Source: a virus (Duplodnaviria; Caudoviricetes). From it: DNA of 64,000 nucleotides. How positions within the stretch are numbered: the first letter of the stretch is position 1; every line of letters starts with the position of its first letter. Position numbers and translations under genes: made by a program. Shown here in pieces: positions 1-44,744 of the stretch. The notes under the pieces are model-generated. The model ran no database searches and was not told the origin of the DNA. It worked only from the letters and a program-made list of their open reading frames with translations. Location of the stretch: the IMG/VR virus record IMGVR_UViG_3300031993_000007; one strand, written 5' to 3'.

Positions 1-131
1 ATATACGAGAACACACGCTTTCGATCGACTTCAAACAATTTACAGAAGAAGCTCATGTTGTATCCGGCATTGTGCTTACTTTTTATACGGGCTATCTTGA
101 TAGTCTCAATTAATTCTGGTGTTGCGCTCAT
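1..131 (-). CDS. 5' part of a hypothetical protein, paralog of 26048-26494 (runs off the window)
   Basis: ATG at 131 gives MSATPELIETIKIARIKSKHNAGYNMSFFCKLFEVD, which aligns by eye with MTKDDVFQAIKVAYRKCKRNTVFNAKYFCEVFNLD; AAGGA upstream. Confidence 0.7.
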   Translation of the reverse strand, partial: MSATPELIETIKIARIKSKHNAGYNMSFFCKLFEVDRKRVFSY

Positions 132-10453: not shown

Positions 10454-10867
10454 TCATTGAATTAGCGAATTGATAACTTTGGCTACATTTTTATAGGTCT
10501 TATACCACTCGCAATGATGGCTTCCTCCAAGCCATGCACTACGGTATGAAGAAGATCCAAGGTATTCTACAATCATCGGCACGTATAGCGACGGATCAAT
10601 GGTCAGTATCTTGCAAACTTTCTTTACGAATTCGTGTTTGTTGATGAAATCTTTAACGGAGTCATCAGAACGTCTAAACCATGTTGTTGGAATTTCTTCT
10701 TCTGAGGATGCCCAAGGCTCTAGCCCAAGCTGTTTAAGAATGTATCTAGATTGAACCCGCTCTGTCGACAAAAAGTGAACTCCGGCAACGGCATAGATAA
10801 ATTCTCTCAAAGCAAAGAACACAGCTTTCTCCAAGGACATTTCGCCTTTTTCAAATTTTTTATTCAT
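10454..10867 (-). CDS. DP-module family protein
   Basis: ILTIDPSLYVPMIVEYL ... NSLIQ*. Confidence 0.8.
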   Translation of the reverse strand: MNKKFEKGEMSLEKAVFFALREFIYAVAGVHFLSTERVQSRYILKQLGLEPWASSEEEIPTTWFRRSDDSVKDFINKHEFVKKVCKILTIDPSLYVPMIVEYLGSSSYRSAWLGGSHHCEWYKTYKNVAKVINSLIQ

Positions 10868-23588: not shown

Positions 23589-23630
23589 TAATATACATAC
23601 AAAAAATAAAGACGAACCCGAAGGTTCGTC
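23589..23630 (-). promoter_or_regulatory. terminator (23611-23630, UUCG) + early promoter (23589-23595)
   Basis: GACGAACC/GGTTCGTC stem. Confidence 0.8.
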
Positions 23631-23632
23631 AT

Positions 23633-23866
23633 CTACTTAATAATCTTTACTTCATAGCTTCCAATGGGCAAGTCCAAGATTTGTCCAGAGTAAAACCATA
23701 CTCGCAGGACAGATTTGTCTGCTATCCACTGGTAGTTTCGTGCATCTTCTAGGACGTATATGGCCGGAGCTTTCCAGTCCGGTTGTTTCACTTCAATTCT
23801 AATTGGCTTGGATCCTGCGAAGGCCAACCCAACCATTAGTAATGCAATCCACAAAATCTTCTTCAT
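23633..23866 (-). CDS. small exported protein (Sec signal peptide)
   Basis: MKKILWIALLMVGLAFA; GGAG SD. Confidence 0.75.
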   Translation of the reverse strand: MKKILWIALLMVGLAFAGSKPIRIEVKQPDWKAPAIYVLEDARNYQWIADKSVLRVWFYSGQILDLPIGSYEVKIIK

Positions 23867-23911
23867 ATTCTTCTCCAGGTTGAACATTTAAGAGTTTTCC
23901 CCTGATAGATT

Positions 23912-24241
23912 TCACTGAATTAGCTCCTTATACCAGTTTTCAAACGTTGTAAAAGCTTCTGTACACCATGCGGTTGAGGCGTGCTTTTTCCAATCTGTAA
24001 GCAAAACAGGAATAGTTGCAAGCGGATCAATTTTCATCTCATCTAGCATCTTTGTTATGATGGGGCTAGCTTTCATTATGAAATCAAAACTCTTCGTCTC
24101 TTGGTCGTTTGCAAATCTTATAATAACACTAGCCTCTTCATCAGATAGCTTAAAGGCTTTTTGGATTTCATCATATAGCCCAAAAATCTGAATGTGAAGT
24201 ACGTACCAAAGGCGATCTCTCGTTATGCCTTCATCCATCAC
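23912..24241 (-). CDS. DP-module family, array member 13
   Basis: EMKIDPLATIPVLL ... KELIQ*. Confidence 0.8.
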   Translation of the reverse strand: MMDEGITRDRLWYVLHIQIFGLYDEIQKAFKLSDEEASVIIRFANDQETKSFDFIMKASPIITKMLDEMKIDPLATIPVLLTDWKKHASTAWCTEAFTTFENWYKELIQ

Positions 24242-24645
24242 GATATCAACCTCCTGAATAGCTCACCAGAATCCCAGAAGTCTGCACAAGTAGTGTGGTT
24301 ATTAAAGAAATCACGGATATAACGACTGTGCATGACTTCTAGAATCTCCGGCACAAAACACAGTGGGTCGGATAAGATGATCTCAGCAATTCGATTAGAT
24401 AACGGTGTGCTGTAGAATTTAGCACATGCGATTGGATCGATTCTCCAAAACTGATTGCCATTCTTTAGTTGCTCGTAAGCCCTAGAATACTTGATTAGAG
24501 ATTTGAATTCTTCATATTCCTCATCAGTCATTTTAAAGACTTCACGCTTAGTCTCAAGAAGACTCTTCATACTATTGAATGGTTTCAAGTACGCATTCAC
24601 TATCCAGAAAGCTTCTTTAATTTTTTCAGCAGTTATTTCATTCAA
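24238..24645 (-). CDS. DP-module family, array member 12
   Basis: IILSDPLCFVPEILEVM ... RRLIS*. Confidence 0.8.
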   Translation of the reverse strand: MNEITAEKIKEAFWIVNAYLKPFNSMKSLLETKREVFKMTDEEYEEFKSLIKYSRAYEQLKNGNQFWRIDPIACAKFYSTPLSNRIAEIILSDPLCFVPEILEVMHSRYIRDFFNNHTTCADFWDSGELFRRLIS

Positions 24646-24647
24646 GA

Positions 24648-25016
24648 TTATCCCTCGAATAATTTGCGAATAGCGTTTTTAGAGTTGGTGATGAGTGTGA
24701 TGTCTCTGGAAGACTCGTAAGCAAGGCTCTCGTTCGGCACGGCTTTGTCCACCTGTGCGATACAAGTTAGCGGATCGGTTTGGATCCATTTGAGGATGAG
24801 GTTCCCAATCTCGCATTTGCAAAACTTGCGTCTAAGAGTCTTGTTACGAGAAGCATTGTCTAGGCATTCCCCTAAAGCGTGCCTTAGTCTCTGTACTTGA
24901 ATTGGTTTCAAAGGAATATTCTCTACCAGCGTACTAAAGCTATTATAGTAGGTCGCCATTACAGCGATATACCAAAAAGCCAGCTTAAGCCTATGGGCAT
25001 CCTCATCTTCTTTCAC
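24648..25016 (-). CDS. DP-module family, array member 11
   Basis: WIQTDPLTCIAQV ... RKLFEG*. Confidence 0.8.
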   Translation of the reverse strand: MKEDEDAHRLKLAFWYIAVMATYYNSFSTLVENIPLKPIQVQRLRHALGECLDNASRNKTLRRKFCKCEIGNLILKWIQTDPLTCIAQVDKAVPNESLAYESSRDITLITNSKNAIRKLFEG

Positions 25017-25603
25017 TGGATCATCCGCCTAGCTACTTGATAAATATAGTCATAGCCGTCGCCCTTGTCATACCCAAGGATAGCTGACAGCGCATCAACA
25101 CCTTGAGTAAATTCCAAAGGACAGCTTGTATAAAAGTTCCAAAGCCCCTTCTCAGTAGTGGGGAATCCAAACTTCACAAAGATATCATGAATCTTTGTAG
25201 CATTTTCTGCAATTGCAAATTCTGTATTTACGGAAGGACTTATATGTCGCAGATACTTTTTGTTGTAACGCAGCTTAGACATCAGTGCTAAATCTTTGGC
25301 AGATAGCTCCTTAATCTGAGCTAGAGTGATCCGCTCTAGATACAATAAGGCTTCGATGCCTTCTGATTCTAAAGCAGTCGTGCGAAGATCAAGCGCCAAT
25401 TTAGAATTTACATTTTCTCCTTTAGCTGCCGATCGCACAAACTTGGTGACAAAGATGAATCCATCAACCAAAGCCAAAGCCAGTATAGCCACCACAACGG
25501 TTAAGACGATTTGACTAGTTTCTTTGGCAACACTACTAGCTAACGCAAGGCTTATAAGAAAGCATACGATGTAGCTAATAAGATGAATGGTTTCCTTGCT
25601 CAT
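25013..25603 (-). CDS. DP-module family, array member 10, with 2 N-terminal TM helices
   Basis: FYTSCPLEFTQGV ... RRMIQ*. Confidence 0.75.
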   Translation of the reverse strand: MSKETIHLISYIVCFLISLALASSVAKETSQIVLTVVVAILALALVDGFIFVTKFVRSAAKGENVNSKLALDLRTTALESEGIEALLYLERITLAQIKELSAKDLALMSKLRYNKKYLRHISPSVNTEFAIAENATKIHDIFVKFGFPTTEKGLWNFYTSCPLEFTQGVDALSAILGYDKGDGYDYIYQVARRMIQ

Positions 25604-25616
25604 ATTGCGATTTCTC

Positions 25617-26054
25617 CTATTGTATTAGGTTTTGAAGGTTGATACAATCTTTCTCCAAGGTGGGAGAGGTTGTATAGTTCTCGTTGATAATAATCTTTAT
25701 TGCATCAGCTAGGAAAGAAACATAGCGGTAAGGATTAATCAAGACCTCATCAACCAGCTCGTTGAATACCTTTCCCTTGAAGAATTTAACCTTAGCATCG
25801 CTCTTTCCAACTCCGACGTACGCAAGTTTAAGATTCTGGTACTCACTAGATTTCTTTTCAAATCCTAAATACTTCGTCAGCTTGTCGTATATGTCAGCAT
25901 CGATTGAGCACCAGATAGCAGACCAGACAGCAATTTTGATATTGGTAGTCCGGGCGGGTTCGGTGTTAACCCTTCCAAGATAGGTCAGGTACCGCCTAGA
26001 CCAATTGTTGTCTTTTGTAAATTTATTCATTACGTTAGAAAATCCTCTTAGCAT
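25617..26054 (-). CDS. DP-module family, array member 9
   Basis: EVLINPYRYVSFL ... QNLIQ*. Confidence 0.8.
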   Translation of the reverse strand: MLRGFSNVMNKFTKDNNWSRRYLTYLGRVNTEPARTTNIKIAVWSAIWCSIDADIYDKLTKYLGFEKKSSEYQNLKLAYVGVGKSDAKVKFFKGKVFNELVDEVLINPYRYVSFLADAIKIIINENYTTSPTLEKDCINLQNLIQ

Positions 26055-26494
26055 AATAGACCTTTAATAGTTTTAGCAGCAGCTTCGACCTCGGCATTCC
26101 ATTTGGCAATATCTTCCGGACTAGCGTTAAAACTATTCCAGAGGATGTCATCCAAAGTCTTTGGCTCCTCTAGAATTTTTAGCAGCTTCGGAGCATAGAT
26201 AATTGGATCGACCATTGTCTGTTTAGTCCACTCTGTGACCATCTGAAATTCCATAGAAACTTTTGTGTCAATGTTTTCTAAGAGGATCTTTTCAGATTGT
26301 TCTACAGCCTTGATGAAATCCTTGTAAAGTGGATCGCTGGGGCTAACCATTTGTTCTCTTGGGTCATACTGAAGAAAACTTATAACTAAATCCAGATTAA
26401 AGACTTCACAGAAGTACTTAGCATTGAAAACTGTATTCCTCTTGCACTTTCTGTAAGCTACTTTTATGGCCTGAAAGACATCATCTTTTGTCAT
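26048..26494 (-). CDS. DP-module family, array member 8
   Basis: QTMVDPIIYAPKLL ... KGLLC*. Confidence 0.8.
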   Translation of the reverse strand: MTKDDVFQAIKVAYRKCKRNTVFNAKYFCEVFNLDLVISFLQYDPREQMVSPSDPLYKDFIKAVEQSEKILLENIDTKVSMEFQMVTEWTKQTMVDPIIYAPKLLKILEEPKTLDDILWNSFNASPEDIAKWNAEVEAAAKTIKGLLC

Positions 26495-26907
26495 TGTAAC
26501 AAACTCCTTAAAGTGGATTTAATCATCATAATTTCAGGTGAATTCTCTTTCATAACTCCAAGTGGATTAGTCAAAGTGGCATCGTAAATATCAGCAATCC
26601 TTTCTAGTCTCTTGGCATAGGCTAGTGGGTCTACTTTGATGTTATCGACACCTCTTATAAAATTCTCGTTCTGGAACAAGCGCTTCTTGAATCTGGCATT
26701 ATTCAGAGGTTTCCTAGTAATCGGGTCAAACCGCTCTATGCTCTTGCGCAACAGCCGCTTGGTATCTCGATCAGTGATCTTTAATACTTCGTTGCAAAGC
26801 ATTCCAAGTAGTCCTTCGTCTTCTGTATAATTGATGCGGCTGTCCAATTTACTAGCATACTCCATTACCTTAAATACGGCTTCTTCTATAGTCATAAAGT
26901 AATTCAT
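26491..26907 (-). CDS. DP-module family, array member 7
   Basis: NIKVDPLAYAKRL ... RSLLQ*. Confidence 0.8.
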   Translation of the reverse strand: MNYFMTIEEAVFKVMEYASKLDSRINYTEDEGLLGMLCNEVLKITDRDTKRLLRKSIERFDPITRKPLNNARFKKRLFQNENFIRGVDNIKVDPLAYAKRLERIADIYDATLTNPLGVMKENSPEIMMIKSTLRSLLQ

Positions 26908-27500
26908 TGAATTAATTTCTCCAAGATATTAATATACTTCTTTTCATACTTTCGAGCTTCCTCTTGGTCATAGTCATGATAGGTGATTCCTTTGTCTGCA
27001 AGCTCGCCAGTGTCTAAGAAGTTGACTTTATCCCAAGGAATAATGTTTCCGTTCCTATCTTCATAGCCGCAGTTATTGCCAGCTTCATGAAAAGAGTACA
27101 TCTCAGATCTAATTAGCTCTACCAGCGGAGGAACAAACTTCATAGGATCAACTAGAACTTCTCTAGCTGCCTTAAGAAGCCAGTCGCACATGCTGTGCTC
27201 TAGTTCGTCATCATCAATGACGGAATGGCATTCATCATACAGATCAAAGGTCAAAGGATCTAGCAGATCTTTATAGCGATCCAGCATTGTTGATAGCCGC
27301 TCAATCGAAAATGTGTTGAATGGCCCTTTATTCGGATTATCGACATTAGCACAAAAGTCAAAGAATATCTTGTGATTTGTCTTCGTCTTATCGCGATGAT
27401 ACATTCCTTCTGCAAAATCGTAGTAATGCTCATAGAAACATAAGACAATGGCTTCTACGATTTCCATCTCCTGTTCGGTCATTTGGTCTTTGTTATACAT
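26904..27500 (-). CDS. DP-module family, array member 6
   Basis: EVLVDPMKFVPPLVELI ... EKLIQ*. Confidence 0.8.
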   Translation of the reverse strand: MYNKDQMTEQEMEIVEAIVLCFYEHYYDFAEGMYHRDKTKTNHKIFFDFCANVDNPNKGPFNTFSIERLSTMLDRYKDLLDPLTFDLYDECHSVIDDDELEHSMCDWLLKAAREVLVDPMKFVPPLVELIRSEMYSFHEAGNNCGYEDRNGNIIPWDKVNFLDTGELADKGITYHDYDQEEARKYEKKYINILEKLIQ

Positions 27501-28006
27501 TGATCTCCCTCAACTAAGTTTCTAAGAGTACCAATACAAATTTTAACAAAATTCTTGCTGTCTTCCTGAAGGTCCATGCGAATTTGTTGATTCTGATTGC
27601 CGGAGCCTTCCAAGCTGTCTTTAACAAAATCACCATTCGAGATAACTTCTTCCATCTTGAAAATGTAATGAATAGGATCCAAGATTATCTCTTCTGTACA
27701 GATTTTTATAGCAAGGATTTGTCGGTAGTCCGTTTTCCAGCACTTGATAACTGTAGGTATCTCTTGAGGACTTATAGAGCTAACCCAATCAAGTACATGG
27801 CTAAATTCTCGGCTGTCATTACAGAAACATTCCGCGCAATGCTTACTGGCGCTCTGGAAGAGCCAGTCACGATCATGAGTATTTCTGCACGAATACACAT
27901 ACAGAACAAAGCATACCGCTACAGCTTCTTCCGTGTGAGAGAAGTGCGTTATTCCTCCTGTTGCATCTCGTACCCATAAACCTGTATTTTCTTCTTCAAT
28001 TTCCAT
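27479..28006 (-). CDS. DP-module family, array member 5
   Basis: EIILDPIHYIFKM ... RNLVEG. Confidence 0.8.
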   Translation of the reverse strand: MEIEEENTGLWVRDATGGITHFSHTEEAVAVCFVLYVYSCRNTHDRDWLFQSASKHCAECFCNDSREFSHVLDWVSSISPQEIPTVIKCWKTDYRQILAIKICTEEIILDPIHYIFKMEEVISNGDFVKDSLEGSGNQNQQIRMDLQEDSKNFVKICIGTLRNLVEGDQCITKTK

Positions 28007-28007
28007 A

Positions 28008-28448
28008 TTACTCCAGTAGGGTTTTAAAGTGGTCTCGGTGAATTTTAAGCGTAGCTTTTTGGATACGCCCTCCGATAAATCCGTTTATAGCTTTATCAAA
28101 AGCTGCTGTAACTTTCGGGCATACTTCTATGGCATTTACAATGATGGAAATCATTACGTCAGTCACAATTCGGACTTCTTGATCATTTATCCAGTAGGCG
28201 ATGGCTTCTCTGGTGGAATATCCTCTGATTTTACATTGCCATAGGATTTCTATGAAATAACCAAAAGAGCGATTATCCTTGCAGATAGATTCCTTGCAAA
28301 GAATTTCTGATAAATCTTTACAAAGATCTTTGTATTGATCAGGAGACAGCGGCGTGGAATCTTTGTCTAAAGCACAGATATCCGTCAGATGGATTAGATC
28401 CTCAAGATACTCAAGGTGCTTATCCTGAAATTGGTTTAAGTAGGCCAT
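28008..28448 (-). CDS. DP-module family, array member 4 (degenerate motif)
   Basis: AIEVCPKVTAAF ... KTLLE*. Confidence 0.7.
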   Translation of the reverse strand: MAYLNQFQDKHLEYLEDLIHLTDICALDKDSTPLSPDQYKDLCKDLSEILCKESICKDNRSFGYFIEILWQCKIRGYSTREAIAYWINDQEVRIVTDVMISIIVNAIEVCPKVTAAFDKAINGFIGGRIQKATLKIHRDHFKTLLE

Positions 28449-28449
28449 A

Positions 28450-28902
28450 CTATCCTTGGATTAAAGATTGAAGATTCTTGATGTACCCTTCGATTTCTAT
28501 CATTTCCTTACTGGCATAGAAATGAGAGTCTTCAAGGCTAGAAGTAATATTAAACATGTTTTCGCATACTTTGAAACGCTCATTAAAGACTTCAACCATC
28601 TTTGGAACTATGGTAGCCGGATTAAGAACAATCTCATTGACCAATTCTGTCACAGAATTCTCGTGTAAGTAATTCTTGAAGGATTTGCCAATCTCAGAAT
28701 CGATCTGAATATCTCCAAATATTACGCAACAAATCAACGAATGATTAACATCACTGAACAGATATCCAAATTCTTCTTTGTATTTCGGATCCTCAGCTCC
28801 AGAAGATCCGAGCTTATTACTAACGATGCAGTGACATCTCCAAAAGATCTTATAGATTTTTAGATAATCGACTCCATCAAGTTTGACTGGAGGTCTAAAC
28901 AT
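28450..28902 (-). CDS. DP-module family, array member 3
   Basis: EIVLNPATIVPKMVEVF ... QSLIQG*. Confidence 0.8.
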   Translation of the reverse strand: MFRPPVKLDGVDYLKIYKIFWRCHCIVSNKLGSSGAEDPKYKEEFGYLFSDVNHSLICCVIFGDIQIDSEIGKSFKNYLHENSVTELVNEIVLNPATIVPKMVEVFNERFKVCENMFNITSSLEDSHFYASKEMIEIEGYIKNLQSLIQG

Positions 28903-29246
28903 AACTTCCCTTCATTCAAAAAGTGTTTACGAATTTCGTCTATGATTTGTACGCCACTTCCCTCTTCCATCCACATATTGCAATGAATGCTAAACGGTTC
29001 TAGATCCTTAAAGACTTTTCTCAATGGCATAAGATACTTGTCCGGATCCAGACTTATGGCACGCTCTAGCTTCGATTCAATATCTGAAAGTAGGTAGAGG
29101 CTTTCGTCCTGCCACTTTATCCATATAGCTAGTCTGGTATTGTCAATGCTGAATTCTTCTTTCATAAAATCCAAGCAATGATCACCAATAGCTTCTGTCA
29201 TGTACAAGCACTTCGAAAGCATTTTAGCAAAGATGTATTTCTGCAT
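28860..29246 (-). CDS. DP-module family, array member 2
   Basis: AISLDPDKYLMPL. Confidence 0.8.
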   Translation of the reverse strand: MQKYIFAKMLSKCLYMTEAIGDHCLDFMKEEFSIDNTRLAIWIKWQDESLYLLSDIESKLERAISLDPDKYLMPLRKVFKDLEPFSIHCNMWMEEGSGVQIIDEIRKHFLNEGKLCLDLQSNLMESII

Positions 29247-29252
29247 AGTTTC

Positions 29253-29729
29253 TCACTGAAGAAGATGAAGACTCTCTAGAAATTCTTCCTCTGCGACTAC
29301 AAGCGGAGGATTTAAAGCGATTTTCTTGTATCGCTCTAGGAATGGAAGATAGAACCTTATCGGATCTAGTTTCATTAAATCATAGATTGCCTGAGCATTT
29401 TCAATGACTTCTTTCTTGATGCTTGGATAAATCGTGAAATTAGTAACAGCAACATCCCAGTTACTCTTCAAGACAACTATCTGCCAAGGATCTATCCCAG
29501 ATTCTTCTTTAATACTGCTCAGAAGAGTGTCATAAGTATGAATGCGAAGAGTGCGGCAGTACTTTTCTACGATGTTAATTAGCTGCGATGCCGTATCTAT
29601 ATCAAGAATTTTCTTTTGTCTTGATTCTTCGCTTGACTTTGTAGTTTCTTCCGTACTTGACAAGGTAGATTCCTCCACTTTTGAGAATTGCACTAACAGG
29701 AATGACTTTGCGATCTCCGGTATAGCCAC
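29253..29729 (-). CDS. DP-module family, array member 1 (may be the 3' part of a frameshifted gene starting at 29997)
   Basis: LMKLDPIRFYLPFL ... LHLLQ*. Confidence 0.75.
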   Translation of the reverse strand: MAIPEIAKSFLLVQFSKVEESTLSSTEETTKSSEESRQKKILDIDTASQLINIVEKYCRTLRIHTYDTLLSSIKEESGIDPWQIVVLKSNWDVAVTNFTIYPSIKKEVIENAQAIYDLMKLDPIRFYLPFLERYKKIALNPPLVVAEEEFLESLHLLQ

Positions 29730-29997: not shown

Positions 29998-30021
29998 TTT
30001 TACCTCTTGATGTTCAAGATA

Positions 30022-30061
30022 TAATATACTATAAAAAATAAAAGCGCACCCTAAGGTGCGC
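30022..30061 (-). promoter_or_regulatory. NAD operon terminator (30044-30061) + early promoter (30022-30028) heading the DP array
   Basis: GCGCACC/GGTGCGC stem, T-run, TATATTA. Confidence 0.8.
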
Positions 30062-30067
30062 CTTGTT

Positions 30068-30853
30068 TTATTCTTCAACCATTTCCAAGTTGGGGTTAAA
30101 CGCCGGGATGTTGAGCATCCTACGTTTGAATTCGTTAGTCTTCATACGAGCAATGATAGCTTGCTTCACACCTTCAGTAATGTTCTTACCGTCGTTGCGA
30201 ATGAAGTCATCAATGTCTGCGTACTTCAGACCCATCTTGGCTTCGTCAGATTGTCCAGAGAGTCCGTCAGCTGGAGTCTTGAGAACAAGATCTTCAGGAA
30301 GACCCAGTTCGAGACCTAGCTTGCGGACTTCAGTCTTGGTGAGGTTTCCAAGCGGAGCAAAGGATCCCATGTCTGCCCAGAGGGTAAAATAACCCATCAT
30401 CAGTTCAGACAAGTTTGCAGTGCAGACCACCACAGATTCTGGAATGTAAGCCTGAGCAATGCCGAATTCGACAGCTTGGCGAACACGAGGAACCATGTTG
30501 ATCTTTGCTTGCATATTCAGATCACCGCCCTTAGCTGGGCCAGCGAGACGGATCGTAGCTTCGGTAGCCATGCAGGCTAGAGCGAGGTTAGCTTCAATGG
30601 TATGAATGACACCAGCGGCCTTTGCAGCGCGCTTAGCATCTTCAAAGTCTGCCTGAATACCATTAGGCATGAATATGCCAAAAACGTGATCCGGGCCGAT
30701 AGATTCGGTCAAGAGCCTTGCGATGACAGTAGAGTCAGTTCCGCCGGAAATACCCAGCACAACATTCTTTGCATGGCACGAAGCCACAGTGTCAACTGTC
30801 CAGCTTTTCATAGCCTGAACGGTATTGCGGTAGTCTTTGATTGCTTTCATCAT
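30068..30853 (-). CDS. nadE: NH3-dependent NAD+ synthetase
   Basis: VLGISGGTDS PP-loop, N..PRVR, TANLSE..GYFTLWAD, P..LTKTEV, TPADGL..Q.DE..MG; no glutaminase domain. Confidence 0.95.
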   Translation of the reverse strand: MMKAIKDYRNTVQAMKSWTVDTVASCHAKNVVLGISGGTDSTVIARLLTESIGPDHVFGIFMPNGIQADFEDAKRAAKAAGVIHTIEANLALACMATEATIRLAGPAKGGDLNMQAKINMVPRVRQAVEFGIAQAYIPESVVVCTANLSELMMGYFTLWADMGSFAPLGNLTKTEVRKLGLELGLPEDLVLKTPADGLSGQSDEAKMGLKYADIDDFIRNDGKNITEGVKQAIIARMKTNEFKRRMLNIPAFNPNLEMVEE

Positions 30854-31419
30854 TAGACAATTACCTCGATCATGATGGCCTTAGCAATAGCAATAGCGTG
30901 CTGATGGTTTTCCGGAGTCGTACCAGCCGAATAGCGAGAATCCCAAACGATCTTCTTATCCGGGAACAGGGTACGAAGGATAACAAGGTTAGAAATCACA
31001 CAAATGTCGGATACAAAGCCGACAACCGTAATGCTTTCTGCCTGAGAGATGATCCTGTCAAATTGACGATCGCACCAATCAAAAGTACCGAAAGATTCCT
31101 TGGTGATATCCTTGTAGTACTTTTCCTTGAGGCTTTCCTTAATTTCAGGAACGATTCCCCATCCACAGTTGTCTTCGTCGCGATATGCCTTGTCGTCATC
31201 GCCGATGCAATGCTTCAGGCCATCCGAAGACTTGAGTTTCTGGCCTTCAAGAGTATAGTCATACAACTTGTCTTCATGGGTGTCGTGAGTTACGACAACC
31301 GGCCCTTCCCAGTCACGAATAAGCTTAGCCAGAGAAGGAATAACCTTCTGGGCTGCTTCGTTCTTTAGAGCTCCGGTAACGAAGTCAATTTGCGGGTCGA
31401 TTACTGCTAAAGTATTCAT
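30853..31419 (-). CDS. pncA: nicotinamidase (isochorismatase/cysteine hydrolase fold)
   Basis: VIDPQIDF..GAL, THDTH, HC, K.SFG, VGFVSDICV catalytic Cys; operon context. Confidence 0.88.
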   Translation of the reverse strand: MNTLAVIDPQIDFVTGALKNEAAQKVIPSLAKLIRDWEGPVVVTHDTHEDKLYDYTLEGQKLKSSDGLKHCIGDDDKAYRDEDNCGWGIVPEIKESLKEKYYKDITKESFGTFDWCDRQFDRIISQAESITVVGFVSDICVISNLVILRTLFPDKKIVWDSRYSAGTTPENHQHAIAIAKAIMIEVIV

Positions 31420-31667
31420 TTTTTCTCCTTGGGTGGAATTGTTAGGATAGATTCAACTTTTCTGGTTTCTTTAACGATCTGGACTTCCTTCTTAGGATGC
31501 CTTTTCTGGATATAATCAGCATGTTCCTTAGCACGCTCTTGTGTATCCATTGGATCGCTGTAGAACATTGTTCCGTCTATATCTACGTATGTACGGAAGT
31601 ATGTTTCTGTAAAATTTACTCTGCCACCGGGATGGTCGCAGATGACACTAGTTGGCTTGCCTGTCAT
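31416..31667 (-). CDS. hypothetical protein within NAD operon
   Basis: overlaps both neighbours; AAGGA SD. Confidence 0.7.
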   Translation of the reverse strand: MTGKPTSVICDHPGGRVNFTETYFRTYVDIDGTMFYSDPMDTQERAKEHADYIQKRHPKKEVQIVKETRKVESILTIPPKEKK

Positions 31668-32778
31668 GAGCAGCTTTCCTTTTCAAATGCTCTGCTATGA
31701 TGTCCTTGTGGTGAAATGCCATCTTAGGCAAGTCCCAAATCGGCCACAGCTTTGCTTCAGCAGCATCATCGTCACCTCCGATCTTATCTTCTTGATCACG
31801 AGGAATTCTGACAGAGAATGCCACATCCACAACACGAAGCCTTGGATCAAACACATGAGCATAGGTTTTAAGCTGTACAAAGTCTTCAGGAGGAAGATCC
31901 ACATGAGTTTCTTCCTTGAGTTCTCTAGCAGCCGTATAGTTGATGTCTTTATCCGTAAGATCAAAGAATCCACCCGGCAAGGCCCAATAGTTCTTGAACG
32001 GATAGTTCTTACGACGAATCAATAGCACTTCTTCACTGGAAGTATAAGCTACGATATCTGCCGTAACAGAAGGTTCAGCCCATCCGTGCTTTTCCTTGTC
32101 AATCTTGTACTGAGCAAGGAATGCTTCAAGATTTTCTTCATACTTGGGGCCATTTTGATAGTACAGCTCGTGTATCCAGATATGCCGATAGATGTCTTCA
32201 AAAGTTAGGCTGCTGATTCCATTGGCCATCTTTTCTGCTAAGGTTGGATCACGTTCTAGATAACTTCTGATCGCAGAACTAGAGACATCCTTAGCCTCGG
32301 TTTCAACCAGCTTGTACTTAGCCTTTTCCCAATAAGCATAAGTGAGCCTATCTCGGATAATTCCAAGAGTATTCTTTGTAGTTCTTGTAAAGACCAAGAA
32401 GCTAACCAGATCACGGATTTCCTCGGAACGTTCCCAGAGACCTCTAGCCAACTGTTCAGCCTGATCCAATCCAATACAAAGAGTGGTATCTTCCGGAGTA
32501 GGCTTGATAGACATGTGGGTAAGCTCCCAAGCCATGAGCTCATCTTGCCATTCAACACTAATGCTGTCTCTTGGAATAGGCAGCTTTGTATTGGCTAGCA
32601 AGATTTCAGTCATGGTTCGGCGCTCTTCAGGTTCGGCTTTGTAGTGCTTCTCTGTGTTGTTAGTCACAAAGATTGTGAGCTTGTCAACCTTCGGATCCAT
32701 GATCGAAGCGATCGTTCGGATTATCTCCGAATGTGCAACGGTAGGAGGATCGAAGGCTCCTCCAAAGATGTAGTGCAT
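31648..32778 (-). CDS. nadD: NadD-type nicotinate-mononucleotide adenylyltransferase fused to a Nudix (ADP-ribose pyrophosphatase-like) domain
   Basis: FGGAFDPPTVAH, IGLDQ..L..W, VSSSAIR; C-terminal PSVTAD..VLLIRR..WALPGGF..AARELKEET..DPR..GDDA..AF.H. Confidence 0.88.
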   Translation of the reverse strand: MHYIFGGAFDPPTVAHSEIIRTIASIMDPKVDKLTIFVTNNTEKHYKAEPEERRTMTEILLANTKLPIPRDSISVEWQDELMAWELTHMSIKPTPEDTTLCIGLDQAEQLARGLWERSEEIRDLVSFLVFTRTTKNTLGIIRDRLTYAYWEKAKYKLVETEAKDVSSSAIRSYLERDPTLAEKMANGISSLTFEDIYRHIWIHELYYQNGPKYEENLEAFLAQYKIDKEKHGWAEPSVTADIVAYTSSEEVLLIRRKNYPFKNYWALPGGFFDLTDKDINYTAARELKEETHVDLPPEDFVQLKTYAHVFDPRLRVVDVAFSVRIPRDQEDKIGGDDDAAEAKLWPIWDLPKMAFHHKDIIAEHLKRKAAHDRQAN

Positions 32779-34059
32779 TTACGGTCTCCAGTGTTTCTTT
32801 GGGAAATTGGTTTCGTAGAAACGCTTAATAAAGTCTGCGATAGCTGCTTGGTCACCCTTGAGGCTCATGATTTCATCAAGCGACGTGTAATTGAATGCGT
32901 GAATGATTTCCTTGATACGGTCTTCGTCATGGCAGTTTGTTTTCCCCGGACAGTCAGACATTTTAACAGCCTTGATGCCATTGACTTCTTGCATCTTCAT
33001 GACCATATTCAGCGGATTGCCGCCGACGTTATTAGTCAAGAAGGTTCCTTGGCCAATGCTGATGAGAATGCGGTTCCAGAAGTAATTGACGATATCAACT
33101 ACCTTGTCATCATTCAAAGAGTCGCTGAAGCAAGCAACCTTTGTCATCGGATCAATCTGGTTGTACTTCAAAGCAGCAATGAATAGATCACCCCAAAGGA
33201 ATGGATCGTTACTGTCATGACGAGCGCCGGACGCAAGCTTCATGTAGCGCTTAGTGAATGCCTTAAGGAAGGCAAGGAAACCATAGGTATCGCTTAAAAA
33301 GATACCAAGGTCGCCATCGAATTCCTTTGCCCAAGTTTCAAATGCCGCTTCTTGCGAATCTTCGGTGCGGATTCCCTTCAGACCTTGGAACAACATCTTC
33401 CACGAGTGGGCAAATGTTCCAATCGGCTTCACGCCAAATTTCATGGCCAAGTAGACGTTCGAAGTGCCTACAAAAGCTAAGCACTTTTCGATCAGACGGC
33501 GGACGACGTATTCATGCCAATCATAAGATGCACGACGGCGAGTACCGAAGTCTGCAAGCTGGAACTTCTTGCCTTCATTCCAGAGCTTGTTGTACTTGTC
33601 AATAGCGGCATCAAGATTTTTCTTACCAAGTTCGTAGTCAACACCTTCTTGGTCTGCCATCCAGAGTTCCTGAACAATAGGCATCACAAGGGTTTCATAC
33701 CAGTGGATACGTTCTTCAGGGCCTTCAGCAGTGATATGCAGTTGGTCATCGTAAGATTCAACATTGATATACTTGCGCTTCAGACGGAAGTCTTCAAGGT
33801 ATTCAATGAAATCGTAAGTCAAGTACGGGATGCTGTCAAGGAACTGCAATTCATCAGTGCCATGCTTCAGTTCGCACAGATGATCAATTTGGTAATTGAC
33901 TTCATCCTTCAGGTATCCAGTCTTGACACCTTTAGAGCGGATAGTCAGTTCCCATTTTGTATGGGCGTTCTTGATATTGTGGAAGATCGCCTGACCCATA
34001 GTGTACTTATAGAAGTCAGTATCGGTCAGATGATTGATAATGAATTTATGGTGGGCCAT
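32779..34059 (-). CDS. pncB: nicotinate phosphoribosyltransferase
   Basis: DTDFYKYTM, DFGTRRR, GTSNV, GTFAHSW (phospho-His), SDTYG, RHDS.DP, FSDSL, VKMSD.PGK. Confidence 0.95.
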   Translation of the reverse strand: MAHHKFIINHLTDTDFYKYTMGQAIFHNIKNAHTKWELTIRSKGVKTGYLKDEVNYQIDHLCELKHGTDELQFLDSIPYLTYDFIEYLEDFRLKRKYINVESYDDQLHITAEGPEERIHWYETLVMPIVQELWMADQEGVDYELGKKNLDAAIDKYNKLWNEGKKFQLADFGTRRRASYDWHEYVVRRLIEKCLAFVGTSNVYLAMKFGVKPIGTFAHSWKMLFQGLKGIRTEDSQEAAFETWAKEFDGDLGIFLSDTYGFLAFLKAFTKRYMKLASGARHDSNDPFLWGDLFIAALKYNQIDPMTKVACFSDSLNDDKVVDIVNYFWNRILISIGQGTFLTNNVGGNPLNMVMKMQEVNGIKAVKMSDCPGKTNCHDEDRIKEIIHAFNYTSLDEIMSLKGDQAAIADFIKRFYETNFPKKHWRP

Positions 34060-34302: not shown

Positions 34303-35730
34303 TTAGGATCCGATAATCTCCTTGGAGATATCGGAAACGCACTTCAGTGTATCATGTTCTAATGTATCTTCGGCGAAGTCTTCTCCAGTATTTTCAGTGT
34401 AGTTTGTAGGGTCAACCATAATATCATTCACAAGACTGTTAGCTACAAAGGTAAAAGCATCATTTTCGCATTCTACATCTTCAGTGAACTTCTCAAGCAA
34501 TTCTCTAGTCTTGTCAATACATTCCAAGAACGGAACCAAGGCTTTCTTGAGCTCGATAAGGTCTGTAATGCAGTCCATAGAGATTCTGGTTCTAGTAGTC
34601 TTCATCATTTCTGTTCTATCGGTAAACCCGACTTCGACATACAATTCTTGATTTCCACCATAGCCAGGACTACCGAACTTAGCATAGCCTTTACCACCTT
34701 CAGGCATCCTATAATGAAAGTCGAAATTCTTATCTGTCTTTTCCATACAGAAATTCTTAACACAGTCCATTATTGCCGGAAGGCAAGTGTTAGAGCCATC
34801 AACAATACGCTTAGTTAGCTTGCTCTTATCATCCTTAGGATAATCTGGAATCTGAGCTTGCATATATCCCTTGAGCAGAATCTTTAAGACAGTCTGTCTT
34901 GCGAAATTAGGATTGGCCTCGTATTCCTCCCTGCTGAACAAGATATAGCCGTTATTCAAATACTTGAATACTTTGAACTCGCTTCGATGGAAAATCAGAG
35001 CATACATCCAAGACAGCATGTTATAACTTGTAACTTTAAATGGAGGAATGAAATAAGCAAAACCATCATTCTTCTTGAGTTCTTCGCGGATCTTTTCAGC
35101 ATCCATAATCTTCGGGGAGACAACCGCTCGAATCTTAGCTTTAAAAGTTAGATGAACTCCAACACTTCCGAAGTTCGGATATCCCGATACAGTGCTAGGA
35201 ATAAGCCCAGAGTGATTCTCTCTGACAAGCTCGTATGCTGTAACTTTGGTTGCGACCTTATCTCCGAATAAGGGAATATTAAAGGAGAACGGAAACCTAA
35301 AAACATTCTTGAAGAGTTCACCTAAGTTATTGACAAGTAAAGTAAGCAAAGAATCAGGATGACTGGGCAAGTAAAAATCTGGAAGGAAAATGTCCAGATT
35401 AATATCAAGACCATCAGTAAAGACCTTCATAGCTTCAGGAGGATAATTCAAACCGTCATTCTCGACGGGGGCATTACCGAGAAAGACATTCTTGAAAAAT
35501 CCGTCTAAATAGAAGAAACTGTTTTGCTTTTCATCTAGAAGTGCAATCATTCCATTCTTAAAATCTTCGACGATATTAGAGGATGGAACAAACTTATTCA
35601 GGTCTTCAGCCGTTTCAATTTTTGTGTTTTCAAAGAAATTGATTACCTCTTGTTTGACAGAAGCATACTTAGTAGGAGTAAGAGTTTTGTCAGCAAGATT
35701 AACAATGGTGGTATACAATGCAGGGATCAT
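34303..35730 (-). CDS. large hypothetical protein with C-terminal DP module (start revised to MIPALY)
   Basis: TATATTA at 35764-35770 and AAGGA SD before ATG 35730; DIMVDPTNY ... KEIIGS*. Confidence 0.8.
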   Translation of the reverse strand: MIPALYTTIVNLADKTLTPTKYASVKQEVINFFENTKIETAEDLNKFVPSSNIVEDFKNGMIALLDEKQNSFFYLDGFFKNVFLGNAPVENDGLNYPPEAMKVFTDGLDINLDIFLPDFYLPSHPDSLLTLLVNNLGELFKNVFRFPFSFNIPLFGDKVATKVTAYELVRENHSGLIPSTVSGYPNFGSVGVHLTFKAKIRAVVSPKIMDAEKIREELKKNDGFAYFIPPFKVTSYNMLSWMYALIFHRSEFKVFKYLNNGYILFSREEYEANPNFARQTVLKILLKGYMQAQIPDYPKDDKSKLTKRIVDGSNTCLPAIMDCVKNFCMEKTDKNFDFHYRMPEGGKGYAKFGSPGYGGNQELYVEVGFTDRTEMMKTTRTRISMDCITDLIELKKALVPFLECIDKTRELLEKFTEDVECENDAFTFVANSLVNDIMVDPTNYTENTGEDFAEDTLEHDTLKCVSDISKEIIGS

Positions 35731-35797
35731 AGAAATTCCTTTTAGATTGTGATCATCAAAAAATAATATAGGACAGACTTTCATCTGTCCTATAAAT

Positions 35798-44074: not shown

Positions 44075-44260
44075 ATGATGAACAGTACTATAGCGGCGCT
44101 TGAAGCCGCCTTTCCACTTGAAAAGATCTTGTATTGCAGAGGATGCGGATTACGTCTTAACGATCTTGGTCTAAAAAAGATACCATCTAATTGTCCGGTT
44201 TGCGGAATCTTAACGGAGAATAACCCAAATGATGACAGCACTGCACAAAGCGATGGATAA
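44075..44260 (+). CDS. small zinc-ribbon protein
   Basis: CRGC...CPVC. Confidence 0.65.
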   Translation: MMNSTIAALEAAFPLEKILYCRGCGLRLNDLGLKKIPSNCPVCGILTENNPNDDSTAQSDG

Positions 44261-44744
44261 GATCATAGATTCTGAAGGCACCACGATTGGAGATTTCTGG
44301 GGATTGCTTACCTTCCTTGAGATTGAGCCGCCCTTGAAACTTCTCAATCAAAAGGGAGAGTACTCAGATCGGTTCAGAAAGGATTTGGAAGACCATTATC
44401 CTATTCAGTTGGATGTGGCCGTCAGATCCAGACTTAGGTGCTATCCCTTGGAAGAGCTTTCGGAATTTATCCGACATCTTCAGATGATTGTAAAGGATGC
44501 AGAACAGATTAAGGATACTTTGGAAAGGGTATATGGAATCCGAGAAGATAATTTCGACACGTACGGATTTGCCTCGGTGATGAAGCCTGTTATCCATCAA
44601 AAATTGGATGACATTCTTGCAGATCCTATAGCCTTCTCTAATAAATTCAGTGAAAAAGATGCACTTTCTCTTGAAAGTTTTAAATTCGGGAAGAGCGTTT
44701 TAAAAGCCATCATAGAAACTAAAAAAGAATTGATCAATGGATAA
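44229..44744 (+). CDS. DP-module family protein
   Basis: DILADPIAFSNKF ... KELING*. Confidence 0.8.
   Translation: MMTALHKAMDKIIDSEGTTIGDFWGLLTFLEIEPPLKLLNQKGEYSDRFRKDLEDHYPIQLDVAVRSRLRCYPLEELSEFIRHLQMIVKDAEQIKDTLERVYGIREDNFDTYGFASVMKPVIHQKLDDILADPIAFSNKFSEKDALSLESFKFGKSVLKAIIETKKELING

What the first reader, a model, noticed from the sequence alone, without database searches (positions are those of the whole stretch)
23912..29729. Tandem array of 13 highly divergent genes sharing a C-terminal [DN]P helix module
Seen: 13 consecutive coupled ORFs (109-198 aa) behind one early promoter (30022). Their N-termini do not align by eye, but each has hydrophobic-x-x-[D/N/C]-P-hydrophobic-x-hydrophobic: MKIDPLATIP, ILSDPLCFVP, IQTDPLTCI, YTSCPLEF, VLINPYRYV, MVDPIIYAP, IKVDPLAYA, VLVDPMKFVP, IILDPIHYI, IEVCPKVT, IVLNPATIVP, ISLDPDKYL, MKLDPIRFY. 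A terminal amphipathic helix follows. Inference: an old, diversified paralog expansion with constant docking module plus variable effector/recognition region, logically like poxvirus ankyrin/F-box or other adaptor libraries. Possible roles are anti-defence or host-takeover adaptors, or cargo tagged for a phage compartment. I know no described family for it.
Basis: partly seen in the sequence, partly recalled or inferred. Interest (0 to 1): 0.85.

Follow-up and report, generated by a model that had tools for sequence, protein, structure and literature searches.

The report
Early paralog array, jumbo phage
An uncultured 259-kb phage has one early operon of 13 small genes, at least 11 of which are very old, strongly diverged copies of one helical protein domain with no known relative. 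It is probably a library of host-binding proteins, but its function has not been tested.

Summary
The array is real. Window 23912-29729 (minus strand) holds 13 tightly coupled ORFs. They sit in one operon that starts at an AR9-like early promoter (TATATTAT, 30028-30021) and ends at a terminator (23630-23611).

Leave-one-out profiles recover 11 of the 13 as one family (E 4e-17 to 3e-3).

The N-termini do align. Conserved hydrophobic positions run from an N-terminal helix to the last residue. AlphaFold2 gives one compact all-alpha domain (pLDDT 92, pTM 0.86), with the D-P as a cap between two helices. So these small proteins are one domain, not a tag attached to unrelated bodies.

No Pfam, PHROG, NCBIfam, PADLOC, PDB, BFVD or ESM-Atlas relative was found. 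A profile search of 1.84 billion proteins gave only 19 representatives, all from this phage or a few related metagenomic contigs.

The genome has at least 19 members. One relative has 26 within 14 kb. Orthologs across phages are closer than paralogs, so the expansion is ancient. The array diverges much faster than its flanks (21-37% against 53-92% identity), with gene gain and loss and dN/dS of 0.2-0.3.

Best reading, untested: a set of early host-takeover or anti-defence binders. Other readers of this scan noted the same family in this genome.

The parts
30041..30064 (-). Hairpin terminator of the upstream NAD+ salvage operon
   Evidence: 10-bp stem with 6 GC pairs, followed by a T-run
30021..30028 (-). 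Early-type promoter core TATATTAT, followed by N4-TG
   Evidence: TATATTAT-N3-5-TG occurs 17 times on the coding strand of the genome against 2 on the other. Most copies lie behind a hairpin and ahead of an SD and ATG. It resembles the AR9 early consensus AAATATATATTAT-(6N)-G (PMC5312081).
29602..29996 (-). First ORF of the operon, 131 aa, not a family member
   Evidence: No HMM or hhalign signal and no Pfam hit. A positional ortholog in L005 is 29% identical.
29253..29663 (-).
   Evidence: Leave-one-out E 3.4e-3. A GGAGG lies 8 nt before the TTG. Public gene call P0013.
28860..29246 (-). Member m12 (128 aa)
   Evidence: Leave-one-out E 7.9e-4. Ortholog L005:12031-12441 is 35% identical, E 1.5e-21.
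28450..28902 (-). Member m11 (150 aa)
   Evidence: Leave-one-out E 3.1e-9. Orthologs: P0005 at 82% and L005 at 36% identity.
28008..28448 (-). m10 (146 aa): doubtful member, with N-A in place of D-P
   Evidence: Leave-one-out E 15. hhalign scores no better than the reversed sequence. No ortholog found. In the family alignment AF2 gives pLDDT 76 and pTM 0.63, with a similar helix order; this is not an independent test.
27479..28006 (-). Member m09 (175 aa)
   Evidence: Leave-one-out E 1.1e-10
26904..27500 (-). Member m08 (198 aa, net charge -20, long insert after the DP helices)
   Evidence: Leave-one-out E 1.1e-15. Orthologs at 69-73% identity in L006 and L007. Charge.
26491..26907 (-). Member m07 (138 aa)
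   Evidence: Leave-one-out E 1.6e-14
26048..26494 (-). Member m06 (148 aa)
   Evidence: Leave-one-out E 9.1e-10
25617..26054 (-). Member m05 (145 aa; 137 aa by the public gene call). No counterpart in relative L006.
   Evidence: Leave-one-out E 1.3e-10. Absence from L006.
25013..25603 (-). m04 (196 aa): hydrophobic N-terminus that looks like a membrane anchor. Not a demonstrable member.
   Evidence: Leave-one-out E 130. hhalign probability 0.1. GRAVY +0.30. No ortholog found.
24648..25016 (-). Member m03 (122 aa)
   Evidence: Leave-one-out E 6.1e-14
24238..24645 (-). Member m02 (135 aa), the member that was modelled
   Evidence: Leave-one-out E 4e-17. AF2 pLDDT 92, pTM 0.86.
23912..24241 (-). 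Member m01 (108-109 aa)
   Evidence: Leave-one-out E 5.1e-10
23633..23887 (-). Last ORF of the operon, 84 aa, with a signal-peptide-like N-terminus. Not a family member.
   Evidence: ORF. It is 78% identical to L007:14123-14356, far more conserved than the array.
23611..23630 (-). Hairpin terminator that closes the operon
   Evidence: 8-bp stem followed by a T-run
10454..10867 (-). Family member outside the array (137 aa)
   Evidence: Scores E 9.4e-16 against an HMM built only from other phage contigs
13152..13634 (-). Divergent family member (160 aa)
   Evidence: Foreign-only HMM E 1.1e-3. Joined the family at iteration 1 of the relaxed search.
44229..44744 (+). Divergent family member on the opposite strand (171 aa)
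   Evidence: Joined at iteration 3 of the relaxed search, while the best reversed-sequence E stayed at or above 0.029
1..131 (-). 3' end of a family member. It and two further members lie just beyond the window (genome 244870-246028 = L001:1871-3029).
   Evidence: Foreign-only HMM E 1.7e-14, 8.8e-14 and 7e-14

Best explanation
The array belongs to a lineage-restricted, anciently expanded multigene family. Each gene encodes a soluble single-domain all-alpha protein of about 110-200 aa with no recognisable relative.

Shown:
- The genes are co-transcribed from an AR9/phiKZ-type early promoter motif.
- They are translationally coupled.
- They are kept under purifying selection.
- What the members share is a scaffold: hydrophobic core positions along the whole chain, a D-P cap between two helices, a second Pro, and a final helix that ends exactly at L-x-x-L-[IL]-Q.
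- What differs is loops, inserts and charge.

Inferred:
- The family is a library of binders built on one scaffold and made at the start of infection.
- Each paralog holds or blocks a different host protein, for host takeover or against host defence systems.
- The D-P and the terminal helix hold the fold together rather than serving as a tag.
- Fast divergence and gene gain and loss reflect conflict with variable host targets.
For: Family and fold:
- Leave-one-out HMMs recover 11 of 13 members.
- An HMM built only from other phage contigs puts family members in the top 13 places among 1159 genome ORFs.
- Conserved columns span residues 9-135 of the model. All are hydrophobic except D93, P94, P99, K85 and the terminal Q.
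- AF2 gives pLDDT 92 and pTM 0.86 for one compact domain.

No enzyme signature:
- There is no conserved polar residue beyond the D-P and the terminal Q.
- pI ranges from 4.6 to 9.3.

Real genes under constraint:
- dN/dS is 0.19-0.31 against close relatives.

Early expression (by motif only):
- TATATTAT-N4-TG sits behind a terminator, matching the AR9 early consensus.
- The phage RNA polymerase beta subunit is nearest to those of AR9, PBS1 and phiR1-37.

Conflict-like evolution:
- Positional orthologs in L005 are 21-37% identical, while flanking genes are 53-92% identical.
- L006 lacks two of the genes. L005 has about 10 genes in place of 13. L007 has 26 members in one 14-kb run.

Context:
- The operon directly follows an NAD synthase / nicotinamidase-like / NMNAT-NUDIX / NAPRTase operon.
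- NAD+ rebuilding is a documented phage counter-defence (bioRxiv 10.1101/2024.02.11.579819; PMC13464706).
Against: - No target, no expression data and no phenotype exist, and the phage is uncultured.
- Each paralog has been kept as a separate ortholog across phages, and dN/dS is well below 1. That pattern fits stable, distinct jobs as well as an arms race.
- The exact C-terminal end L-[IL]-Q is conserved with varied codons. A copy of the DP motif lies near the C-terminus of larger proteins. Both hint at a shared partner, which a pure 'variable surface' model does not need.
- That the conserved residues are buried is inferred from their helical spacing. It was not measured on coordinates.
Confidence: 0.45

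Rival explanations
1. Adaptor library. The helix-[DN]P-helix plus terminal helix is a constant docking surface for one hub, which could be a phage or host machine such as a polymerase, a protease or an assembly site. The rest of each protein brings a different cargo or target to that hub.
For: - Among non-family proteins of at least 150 aa, 12 of the 15 best DP-core hits lie within 65 aa of the C-terminus, against about 30% expected. Real scores reach 10.9 bits, against at most 2.5 for reversed and 0.5 for shuffled sequences.
- hhalign places ten such proteins on the same profile columns, about 75-101, with P 0.002-0.03.
- In the 500-aa protein next to the RNA polymerase beta gene, the [DE]-P turn and the ending K-E-I-[IL] are kept in an ortholog that is only 24% identical.
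- The family's exact C-terminal end is conserved through varied codons.
Against: - In the small proteins the motif sits inside one compact domain, and the N-terminal helix is conserved as well.
- Almost all conserved residues are hydrophobic, as expected for a protein core.
- With an HMM of the whole C-terminal module, enrichment at C-termini is modest: 7 of 191 at 5 bits or more, against 1 each for N-terminal, middle and reversed pieces. One of the seven is the NAPRTase.
- Every single match to a large protein is weak.
Confidence: 0.2
2. Phage-internal regulators. The paralogs are small factors that bind the phage's own multisubunit RNA polymerases or its DNA, and they set the timing or selectivity of transcription or replication.
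For: - The phage encodes AR9/phiKZ-type polymerase subunits and has no recognisable sigma-type factor in the part examined.
- In relative L005, family members flank the gene next to the polymerase beta subunit.
- Orthologs are kept one by one across phages, as expected for housekeeping regulators.
Against: - No HTH or other nucleic-acid-binding family matches.
- The charge is not uniformly basic; pI runs from 4.6 to 9.3.
- Copy number differs between close relatives, which is unusual for core regulators.
Confidence: 0.1
3. Superinfection exclusion or phage-against-phage competition. The early proteins block entry or development of rival phages in the same rumen host.
For: - They are early genes that evolve fast and vary in copy number.
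- The operon also carries a membrane-anchored ORF and a secreted-type ORF.
Against: - 11 of the 13 are soluble, with no signal or membrane segment.
- There is no similarity to known exclusion proteins.
Confidence: 0.1
4. Cargo marked for the capsid or for a phage compartment. This would resemble T4 internal proteins, which share a targeting peptide, or proteins imported into a phage nucleus.
For: It is a hypervariable cluster of small proteins that share a short conserved motif, as in the T4 internal-protein locus (own knowledge).
Against: - The promoter is of the early type, whereas virion proteins are normally late.
- Conservation covers the whole domain rather than a leader peptide.
- Neither phiKZ chimallin nor Pfam PF25677 finds a match in the complete genome. 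A very divergent shell protein could still be missed.
Confidence: 0.05

Closest known systems
Multigene families of large eukaryotic DNA viruses (poxvirus ankyrin/PRANC proteins, ASFV MGF360/505). From own knowledge.
   Same: Tandem arrays of old, strongly diverged paralogs in a large virus genome, with copy number that varies between relatives. They are thought to act on host factors.
   Different: This is a bacterial virus. No ankyrin, F-box or PRANC domain is present. The unit is one small helical domain with no known relative.
T4-type internal proteins (IPI-III) in their hyperplastic locus, which share a capsid-targeting leader. From own knowledge.
   Same: A cluster of small, very divergent phage proteins that share a short conserved motif. 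The locus varies between related phages, and at least one member is anti-restriction.
   Different: In T4 the shared part is a cleaved N-terminal leader, and the genes are late and packaged into virions. Here homology spans the whole domain and the promoter is of the early type.
Early host-takeover gene clusters of large phages (SPO1 takeover module, phiKZ and AR9 early genes). AR9 early promoters: PMC5312081.
   Same: Runs of small genes of unknown family behind strong early promoters read by an injected polymerase. The promoter core TATATTAT is shared with AR9.
   Different: Those clusters consist mostly of unrelated genes. Here at least 11 of 13 are paralogs of one domain, and the genome holds at least 19.
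Anti-defence loci (anti-CRISPR and other small inhibitor genes; NAD+ reconstitution pathways, bioRxiv 10.1101/2024.02.11.579819)
   Same: Small, non-enzymatic, fast-evolving early proteins clustered next to a counter-defence operon.
   Different: No sequence or fold match to any known inhibitor. Known inhibitor loci rarely hold many paralogs of one fold. No activity has been shown here.

Membership tests
The DP-helix family itself (as defined here) | Recovered by a profile built without the tested protein | tested here: met
   11 of 13 array ORFs at E 4e-17 to 3.4e-3. The ORFs at 25013-25603 and 28008-28448 fail, with E 130 and 15.
The DP-helix family itself (as defined here) | Shared N-terminal helix, [DN]-P turn with a second Pro five residues on, and a chain that ends at L-x-x-L-[IL]-Q | tested here: met
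   In the 58-sequence alignment the columns are D 86%, P 97%, second P 57%, L 84%, I 57% and terminal Q 60%.
Any Pfam, PHROG, NCBIfam or PADLOC family | Significant profile match | tested here: not met
   No significant match. No family is hit by more than 2 of the 58 members, even at E up to 1.
Poxvirus-type ankyrin/PRANC (F-box-like) adaptors | Ankyrin repeats plus a C-terminal PRANC or F-box domain | tested here: not met
   No such Pfam match in any of the 58 members. The model is one non-repeat helical domain.
T4-type internal proteins | The shared element is a short N-terminal capsid-targeting leader on otherwise unrelated proteins | tested here: not met
   The first 5-8 residues are not conserved. 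Conservation runs through the whole chain.
T4-type internal proteins | Late expression and presence in virions | not testable with these tools
   Only a promoter motif of the early type is seen. No RNA run was listed.
Cargo of a chimallin phage nucleus | The genome encodes a chimallin shell protein | tested here: inconclusive
   Neither phiKZ gp54 nor PF25677 matches in the complete genome. The Pfam model is specific to Phikzvirus, so a distant shell protein could be missed.
AR9/phiKZ-type early transcription unit | AT-rich consensus containing TATATTAT, with a G start a few bases downstream | tested here: met
   TATATTAT-N4-TG at 30028-30015. There are 17 copies on the coding strand against 2 on the other. 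AR9 consensus from PMC5312081. Use by a virion polymerase is inferred.
Known protein folds (PDB, BFVD, ESM Atlas) | Structural match above background | tested here: inconclusive

The most novel reading that the evidence does not exclude
The helix-[DN]P-helix plus exact C-terminal helix is a docking module shared by dozens of early proteins of this phage clade. These include the small paralogs and the 400-540-aa proteins, among them the one encoded next to the RNA polymerase beta gene. The module plugs all of them into one hub. That would be a phage-encoded adaptor system comparable in logic to F-box/PRANC families, and the first of its kind in a bacterial virus.
Probability: 0.12. Interest if true: 0.85.

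Novelty: new variant of a known kind. Interest (0 to 1): 0.55.

Why it matters
Phage genomes rarely hold large families of paralogs. This one has at least 19 copies per genome, and one relative has 26 within 14 kb. The copies are ancient, individually retained and placed behind early promoters. That pattern is familiar from the host-range and immune-evasion families of poxviruses, ASFV and giant viruses, but is hardly documented in phages.

The domain gives a confident model with no structural relative, so it is a candidate new fold and a compact natural scaffold that tolerates extreme sequence change. If the members are inhibitors of host defences, the family would supply many new counter-defence proteins at once.

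The limits are plain. The phage is uncultured, its host is unknown, and no function has been shown.

Tried and rejected
- **Nucleotide search.** Megablast of the array against 50,697 phage records found no match.
- **Related loci in viral contigs.** The search with one member found no relative.
- **PDB by sequence profile.** The best hit is centrin/caltractin at E 0.16, which is not significant.
- **ESM Atlas by features.** No usable hit.
- **Homodimer test of the modelled member.** Complex prediction gave 'no answer' with score 0.00. This counts neither for nor against self-association.
- **Word-indexed homolog searches with two alignments.** They added only a few metagenomic fragments.
- **tblastn of the 500-aa and 527-aa proteins against phage records.** No match.
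- **Rejected: the C-terminal L-[IL]-Q is only a by-product of the next gene's ribosome site and start codon.** The Shine-Dalgarno of the next gene does sit at residues -5 and -4, and some stops overlap the next start. However, L, I and Q are encoded by varied codons, and Q is also kept where the next gene starts 7-25 nt away.
- **Rejected: the ORFs are non-coding noise.** dN/dS is 0.19-0.31, orthologs exist, and the model has pLDDT 92.

Full report
**Setting**

The window is the reverse strand of positions 181001-245000 of a complete virus record of 259,448 bp with direct terminal repeats. Earlier notes of this scan call it a rumen jumbo phage. I did not verify the habitat. The related contigs I found come from JGI and ENA metagenomes and Logan assemblies of sequencing runs.

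The phage encodes a split multisubunit RNA polymerase. Its beta-subunit piece at 35798-37024 matches phrog_2962. By tblastn it is closest, at 31-35% identity, to Yersinia phage phiR1-37 and Bacillus phages AR9 and PBS1.

**The operon**

On the minus strand the order is as follows.

| Coordinates | Feature |
|---|---|
| 30064-30041 | hairpin terminator |
| 30028-30021 | T-run, then TATATTAT, followed by N4-TG |
| 29996-29602 | Shine-Dalgarno site, then a 131-aa ORF that is not a family member |
| 29729-23912 | the 13 ORFs of the finding |
| 23887-23633 | an 84-aa ORF with a signal-peptide-like start |
| 23630-23611 | hairpin terminator |

Junctions between the 13 ORFs run from a 43-nt overlap to a 25-nt gap. 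Several stops overlap the next start as ATGA or GTGA.

The promoter motif TATATTAT-N3-5-TG occurs 17 times on the coding strand of the genome and twice on the other strand. Most copies lie right after a hairpin and 20-40 nt before an SD and ATG. AR9 early promoters, which are read by the injected virion polymerase, have the consensus AAATATATATTAT-(6N)-G (PMC5312081). Early transcription of the array is therefore a reasonable inference, but it was not observed. No RNA run was listed for the stretch.

**Is the family real?**

Yes, for 11 of the 13 ORFs.

- A plain alignment shows a near-invariant Pro and a C-terminal Leu.
- An HMM of the 13 also finds four more ORFs elsewhere in the genome.
- A profile search of 1.84 billion representative proteins returned only 19 hits at E up to 1e-3. 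These are the phage's own proteins plus a handful from metagenomes.
- Those hits led to related contigs:
  - L005, a 33-kb IMG/VR contig;
  - L006;
  - L004;
  - L003;
  - L007, part of a 254-kb genome;
  - L008.
- Iterating over all ORFs of these loci and the genome gave 70 family ORFs, then 80 with a looser cut-off. The best hit in reversed sequences never went below E 0.029.
- An HMM built from the 38 foreign ORFs alone places family members in the top 13 of 1159 genome ORFs.
- Leave-one-out against the 79 other members gives E 4e-17 to 3.4e-3 for 11 array ORFs.
- It gives E 130 for 25013-25603 and E 15 for 28008-28448. These two also do no better than their reversed sequences in hhalign and have no ortholog in the sampled relatives.

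- ORF 25013-25603 has a hydrophobic N-terminus (GRAVY +0.30).
- In ORF 28008-28448 the family alignment puts N-A at the D-P position, and its C-P falls on the family's second conserved Pro. When folded inside the family alignment it reaches pLDDT 76 and pTM 0.63 with a similar order of helices. That is compatible with membership but is not independent of the alignment.

**Architecture**

In the 58-sequence alignment, conserved columns run from residue 9 to residue 135 of the modelled member (24238-24645).

- An N-terminal helix carries the pattern h-x-x-A-h-W.
- Two hydrophobic positions precede the third helix.
- Next comes the stretch h-x-x-x-h-x-x-D-P-h-x-[YF]-h-P.
- A final helix ends the chain at L-x-x-L-[IL]-Q.
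- Apart from D, the two P, one K and the terminal Q, every conserved column is hydrophobic.

AlphaFold2 on this alignment gives a single compact domain with pLDDT 92 and pTM 0.86. It has eight helices and, in this member, a beta-hairpin insert. The D-P lies between helices 81-92 and 94-105.

The small proteins are therefore full-length homologs of one domain. The D-P reads as a helix cap inside it. That the conserved residues form the core is inferred from their spacing along the helices, because I had no access to the coordinates.

Charge varies widely, with pI from 4.6 to 9.3 and net charge from -20 to +6. No polar residue that could serve catalysis is conserved.

**Relatives in databases**

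| Resource | Result |
|---|---|
| Pfam, PHROGs, NCBIfam, PADLOC | no significant or recurrent match |
| PDB by sequence profile | nothing significant |
| Foldseek against PDB | best E 0.5 |
| Foldseek against BFVD | best E 0.25 |
| ESM Atlas | best TM 0.41 |

This shows that no relative is recognisable. It does not prove that the fold is new.

**Evolution**

*Relative L005.* The array sits at the same place, directly after the NAD synthase gene.

| Gene pair (window vs L005) | Identity |
|---|---|
| RNA polymerase beta subunit | 92% |
| NAPRTase | 80% |
| NAD synthase | 66% |
| other flanking genes | 46-58% |
| positional orthologs within the array | 21-37% |

L005 has about ten genes where this phage has 13.

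*Relative L006.* In this closer relative, orthologs are 58-83% identical, and the fifth and fourth members from the array's end have no counterpart.

*Relative L007.* Members that in this genome lie in three separate clusters form part of one run of about 35 small genes in 14 kb, and 26 of them are detectable members.

*Age of the expansion.* For nearly every member the best match is an ortholog in another phage (35-83% identity), not a paralog in the same genome; paralogs mostly score E above 0.001 by BLAST. The expansion is therefore old, and each copy has been kept separately.

*Selection.* dN/dS against close relatives is 0.19-0.31. That indicates purifying selection on real proteins. Flanking genes gave lower values of 0.03-0.12, but those come from a more distant pair with saturated dS, so the two sets are not strictly comparable.

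**The C-terminal tail**

The last residues carry the ribosome site of the next gene. GGAG-type words fall at residues -5 and -4, and some stops overlap the next start codon. Even so, L, I/L and Q are written with varied codons, and Q is also kept where the next gene starts 7, 14 or 25 nt downstream. The tail is therefore conserved at the protein level. Two earlier notes of this scan say the same, and I confirm them.

**A module on larger proteins?**

An HMM of the 32 residues around the D-P finds more in real ORFs than in controls. Five non-family ORFs score at least 6 bits, against none in reversed or shuffled sets. Among proteins of at least 150 aa, 12 of the 15 best hits lie within 65 aa of the C-terminus. 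About 30% would be expected, and 33% is seen in both controls. hhalign puts ten such proteins on the same profile columns at P 0.002-0.03.

In the 500-aa protein encoded next to the polymerase beta gene, the [DE]-P turn and the chain ending K-E-I-[IL] are kept in an ortholog that is 24% identical. Some of the 143-208-aa hits also show the N-terminal helix pattern and are probably distant full-length members.

With an HMM of the whole C-terminal module the excess is smaller: 7 of 191 C-termini at 5 bits or more, against 1 each for three controls. One of the seven is the NAPRTase. I rate this as suggestive.

**Function**

Nothing was measured. The facts are:

- the promoter is of the early type;
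- the proteins are small, soluble and non-enzymatic;
- they share one scaffold under variable surfaces;
- they diverge fast, with gene gain and loss, yet each paralog is retained;
- they sit next to an NAD+ salvage operon of four enzymes:
  - NAD synthase;
  - isochorismatase-type nicotinamidase;
  - NMNAT-NUDIX;
  - NAPRTase.

NAD+ rebuilding is a documented phage counter-defence.

The reading that fits most of this is a library of early binders of host proteins, for takeover or against defence systems (confidence 0.45). The rivals are:

- a common-hub adaptor system (0.2);
- phage-internal regulators (0.1);
- exclusion of rival phages (0.1);
- capsid or compartment cargo (0.05).

No chimallin gene was found. 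A homodimer prediction gave no verdict.

**Verdict**

- It is a new, lineage-restricted protein family in a known kind of arrangement, namely a viral multigene array behind an early promoter.
- Interest is moderate. The scale and age of the family and the orphan fold are unusual for a phage, but the function is unknown and the phage is uncultured.

Noticed in passing
window 30068-34059 (-): The operon just upstream encodes four enzymes: NAD synthase, an isochorismatase-family (nicotinamidase-like) protein, a cytidylyltransferase-NUDIX fusion and NAPRTase. Together these form a deamidating NAD+ salvage route, which differs from the published NARP1, NARP2 and NARP3 sets.
   Followed up: partly
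whole genome; in the window e.g. 30028, 20811, 17593, 15494, 12021, 9210, 35770, 48016, 58340, 63446: The promoter-like word TATATTAT-N3-5-TG occurs 17 times on the coding strand and twice on the other. Most copies lie directly behind a GC hairpin with a T-run and 20-40 nt before an SD and ATG. The accessory region is therefore built from terminator-promoter cassettes.
   Followed up: partly
window 26936 (-), inside the 3' end of 26904-27500: A near-copy of the promoter word (TATATTAA followed by TATCTTG) lies about 30 nt before the start of the next member. The peptide it encodes is conserved in L006 and L007. It could be an internal promoter or chance.
   Followed up: no
window 34303-35805 (-) and L005:4982-6355: A 500-aa protein with no family match overlaps the end of the RNA polymerase beta gene. 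Its C-terminus carries the [DE]-P turn and a K-E-I-[IL] end, and both are kept in an ortholog that is 24% identical. In L005 this gene is flanked by two small family members that are absent here.
   Followed up: partly
L007:294-13975 (ENA ERZ27303936 k141_6569, 254-kb contig): About 35 consecutive small genes on one strand in 14 kb, of which 26 are detectable family members. The run joins orthologs of three clusters that lie apart in this genome.
   Followed up: partly
window 23633-23887 (-): The 84-aa signal-peptide-like ORF that closes the operon is 78% identical to its L007 counterpart. That is far more conserved than the array ahead of it.
   Followed up: no
window 29602-29663 (-): The 131-aa first ORF of the operon overlaps the likely TTG start of the first family member by 62 nt. 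That is an unusually long overlap for this otherwise tightly packed operon.
   Followed up: no
window 25013-25603 (-): A membrane-anchored ORF without the family signature sits in the middle of the array. It ends in R-R-M-I-Q like the family, and neither it nor its neighbour has a counterpart in the close relative L006. It may be a very divergent tethered member or an insertion.
   Followed up: partly
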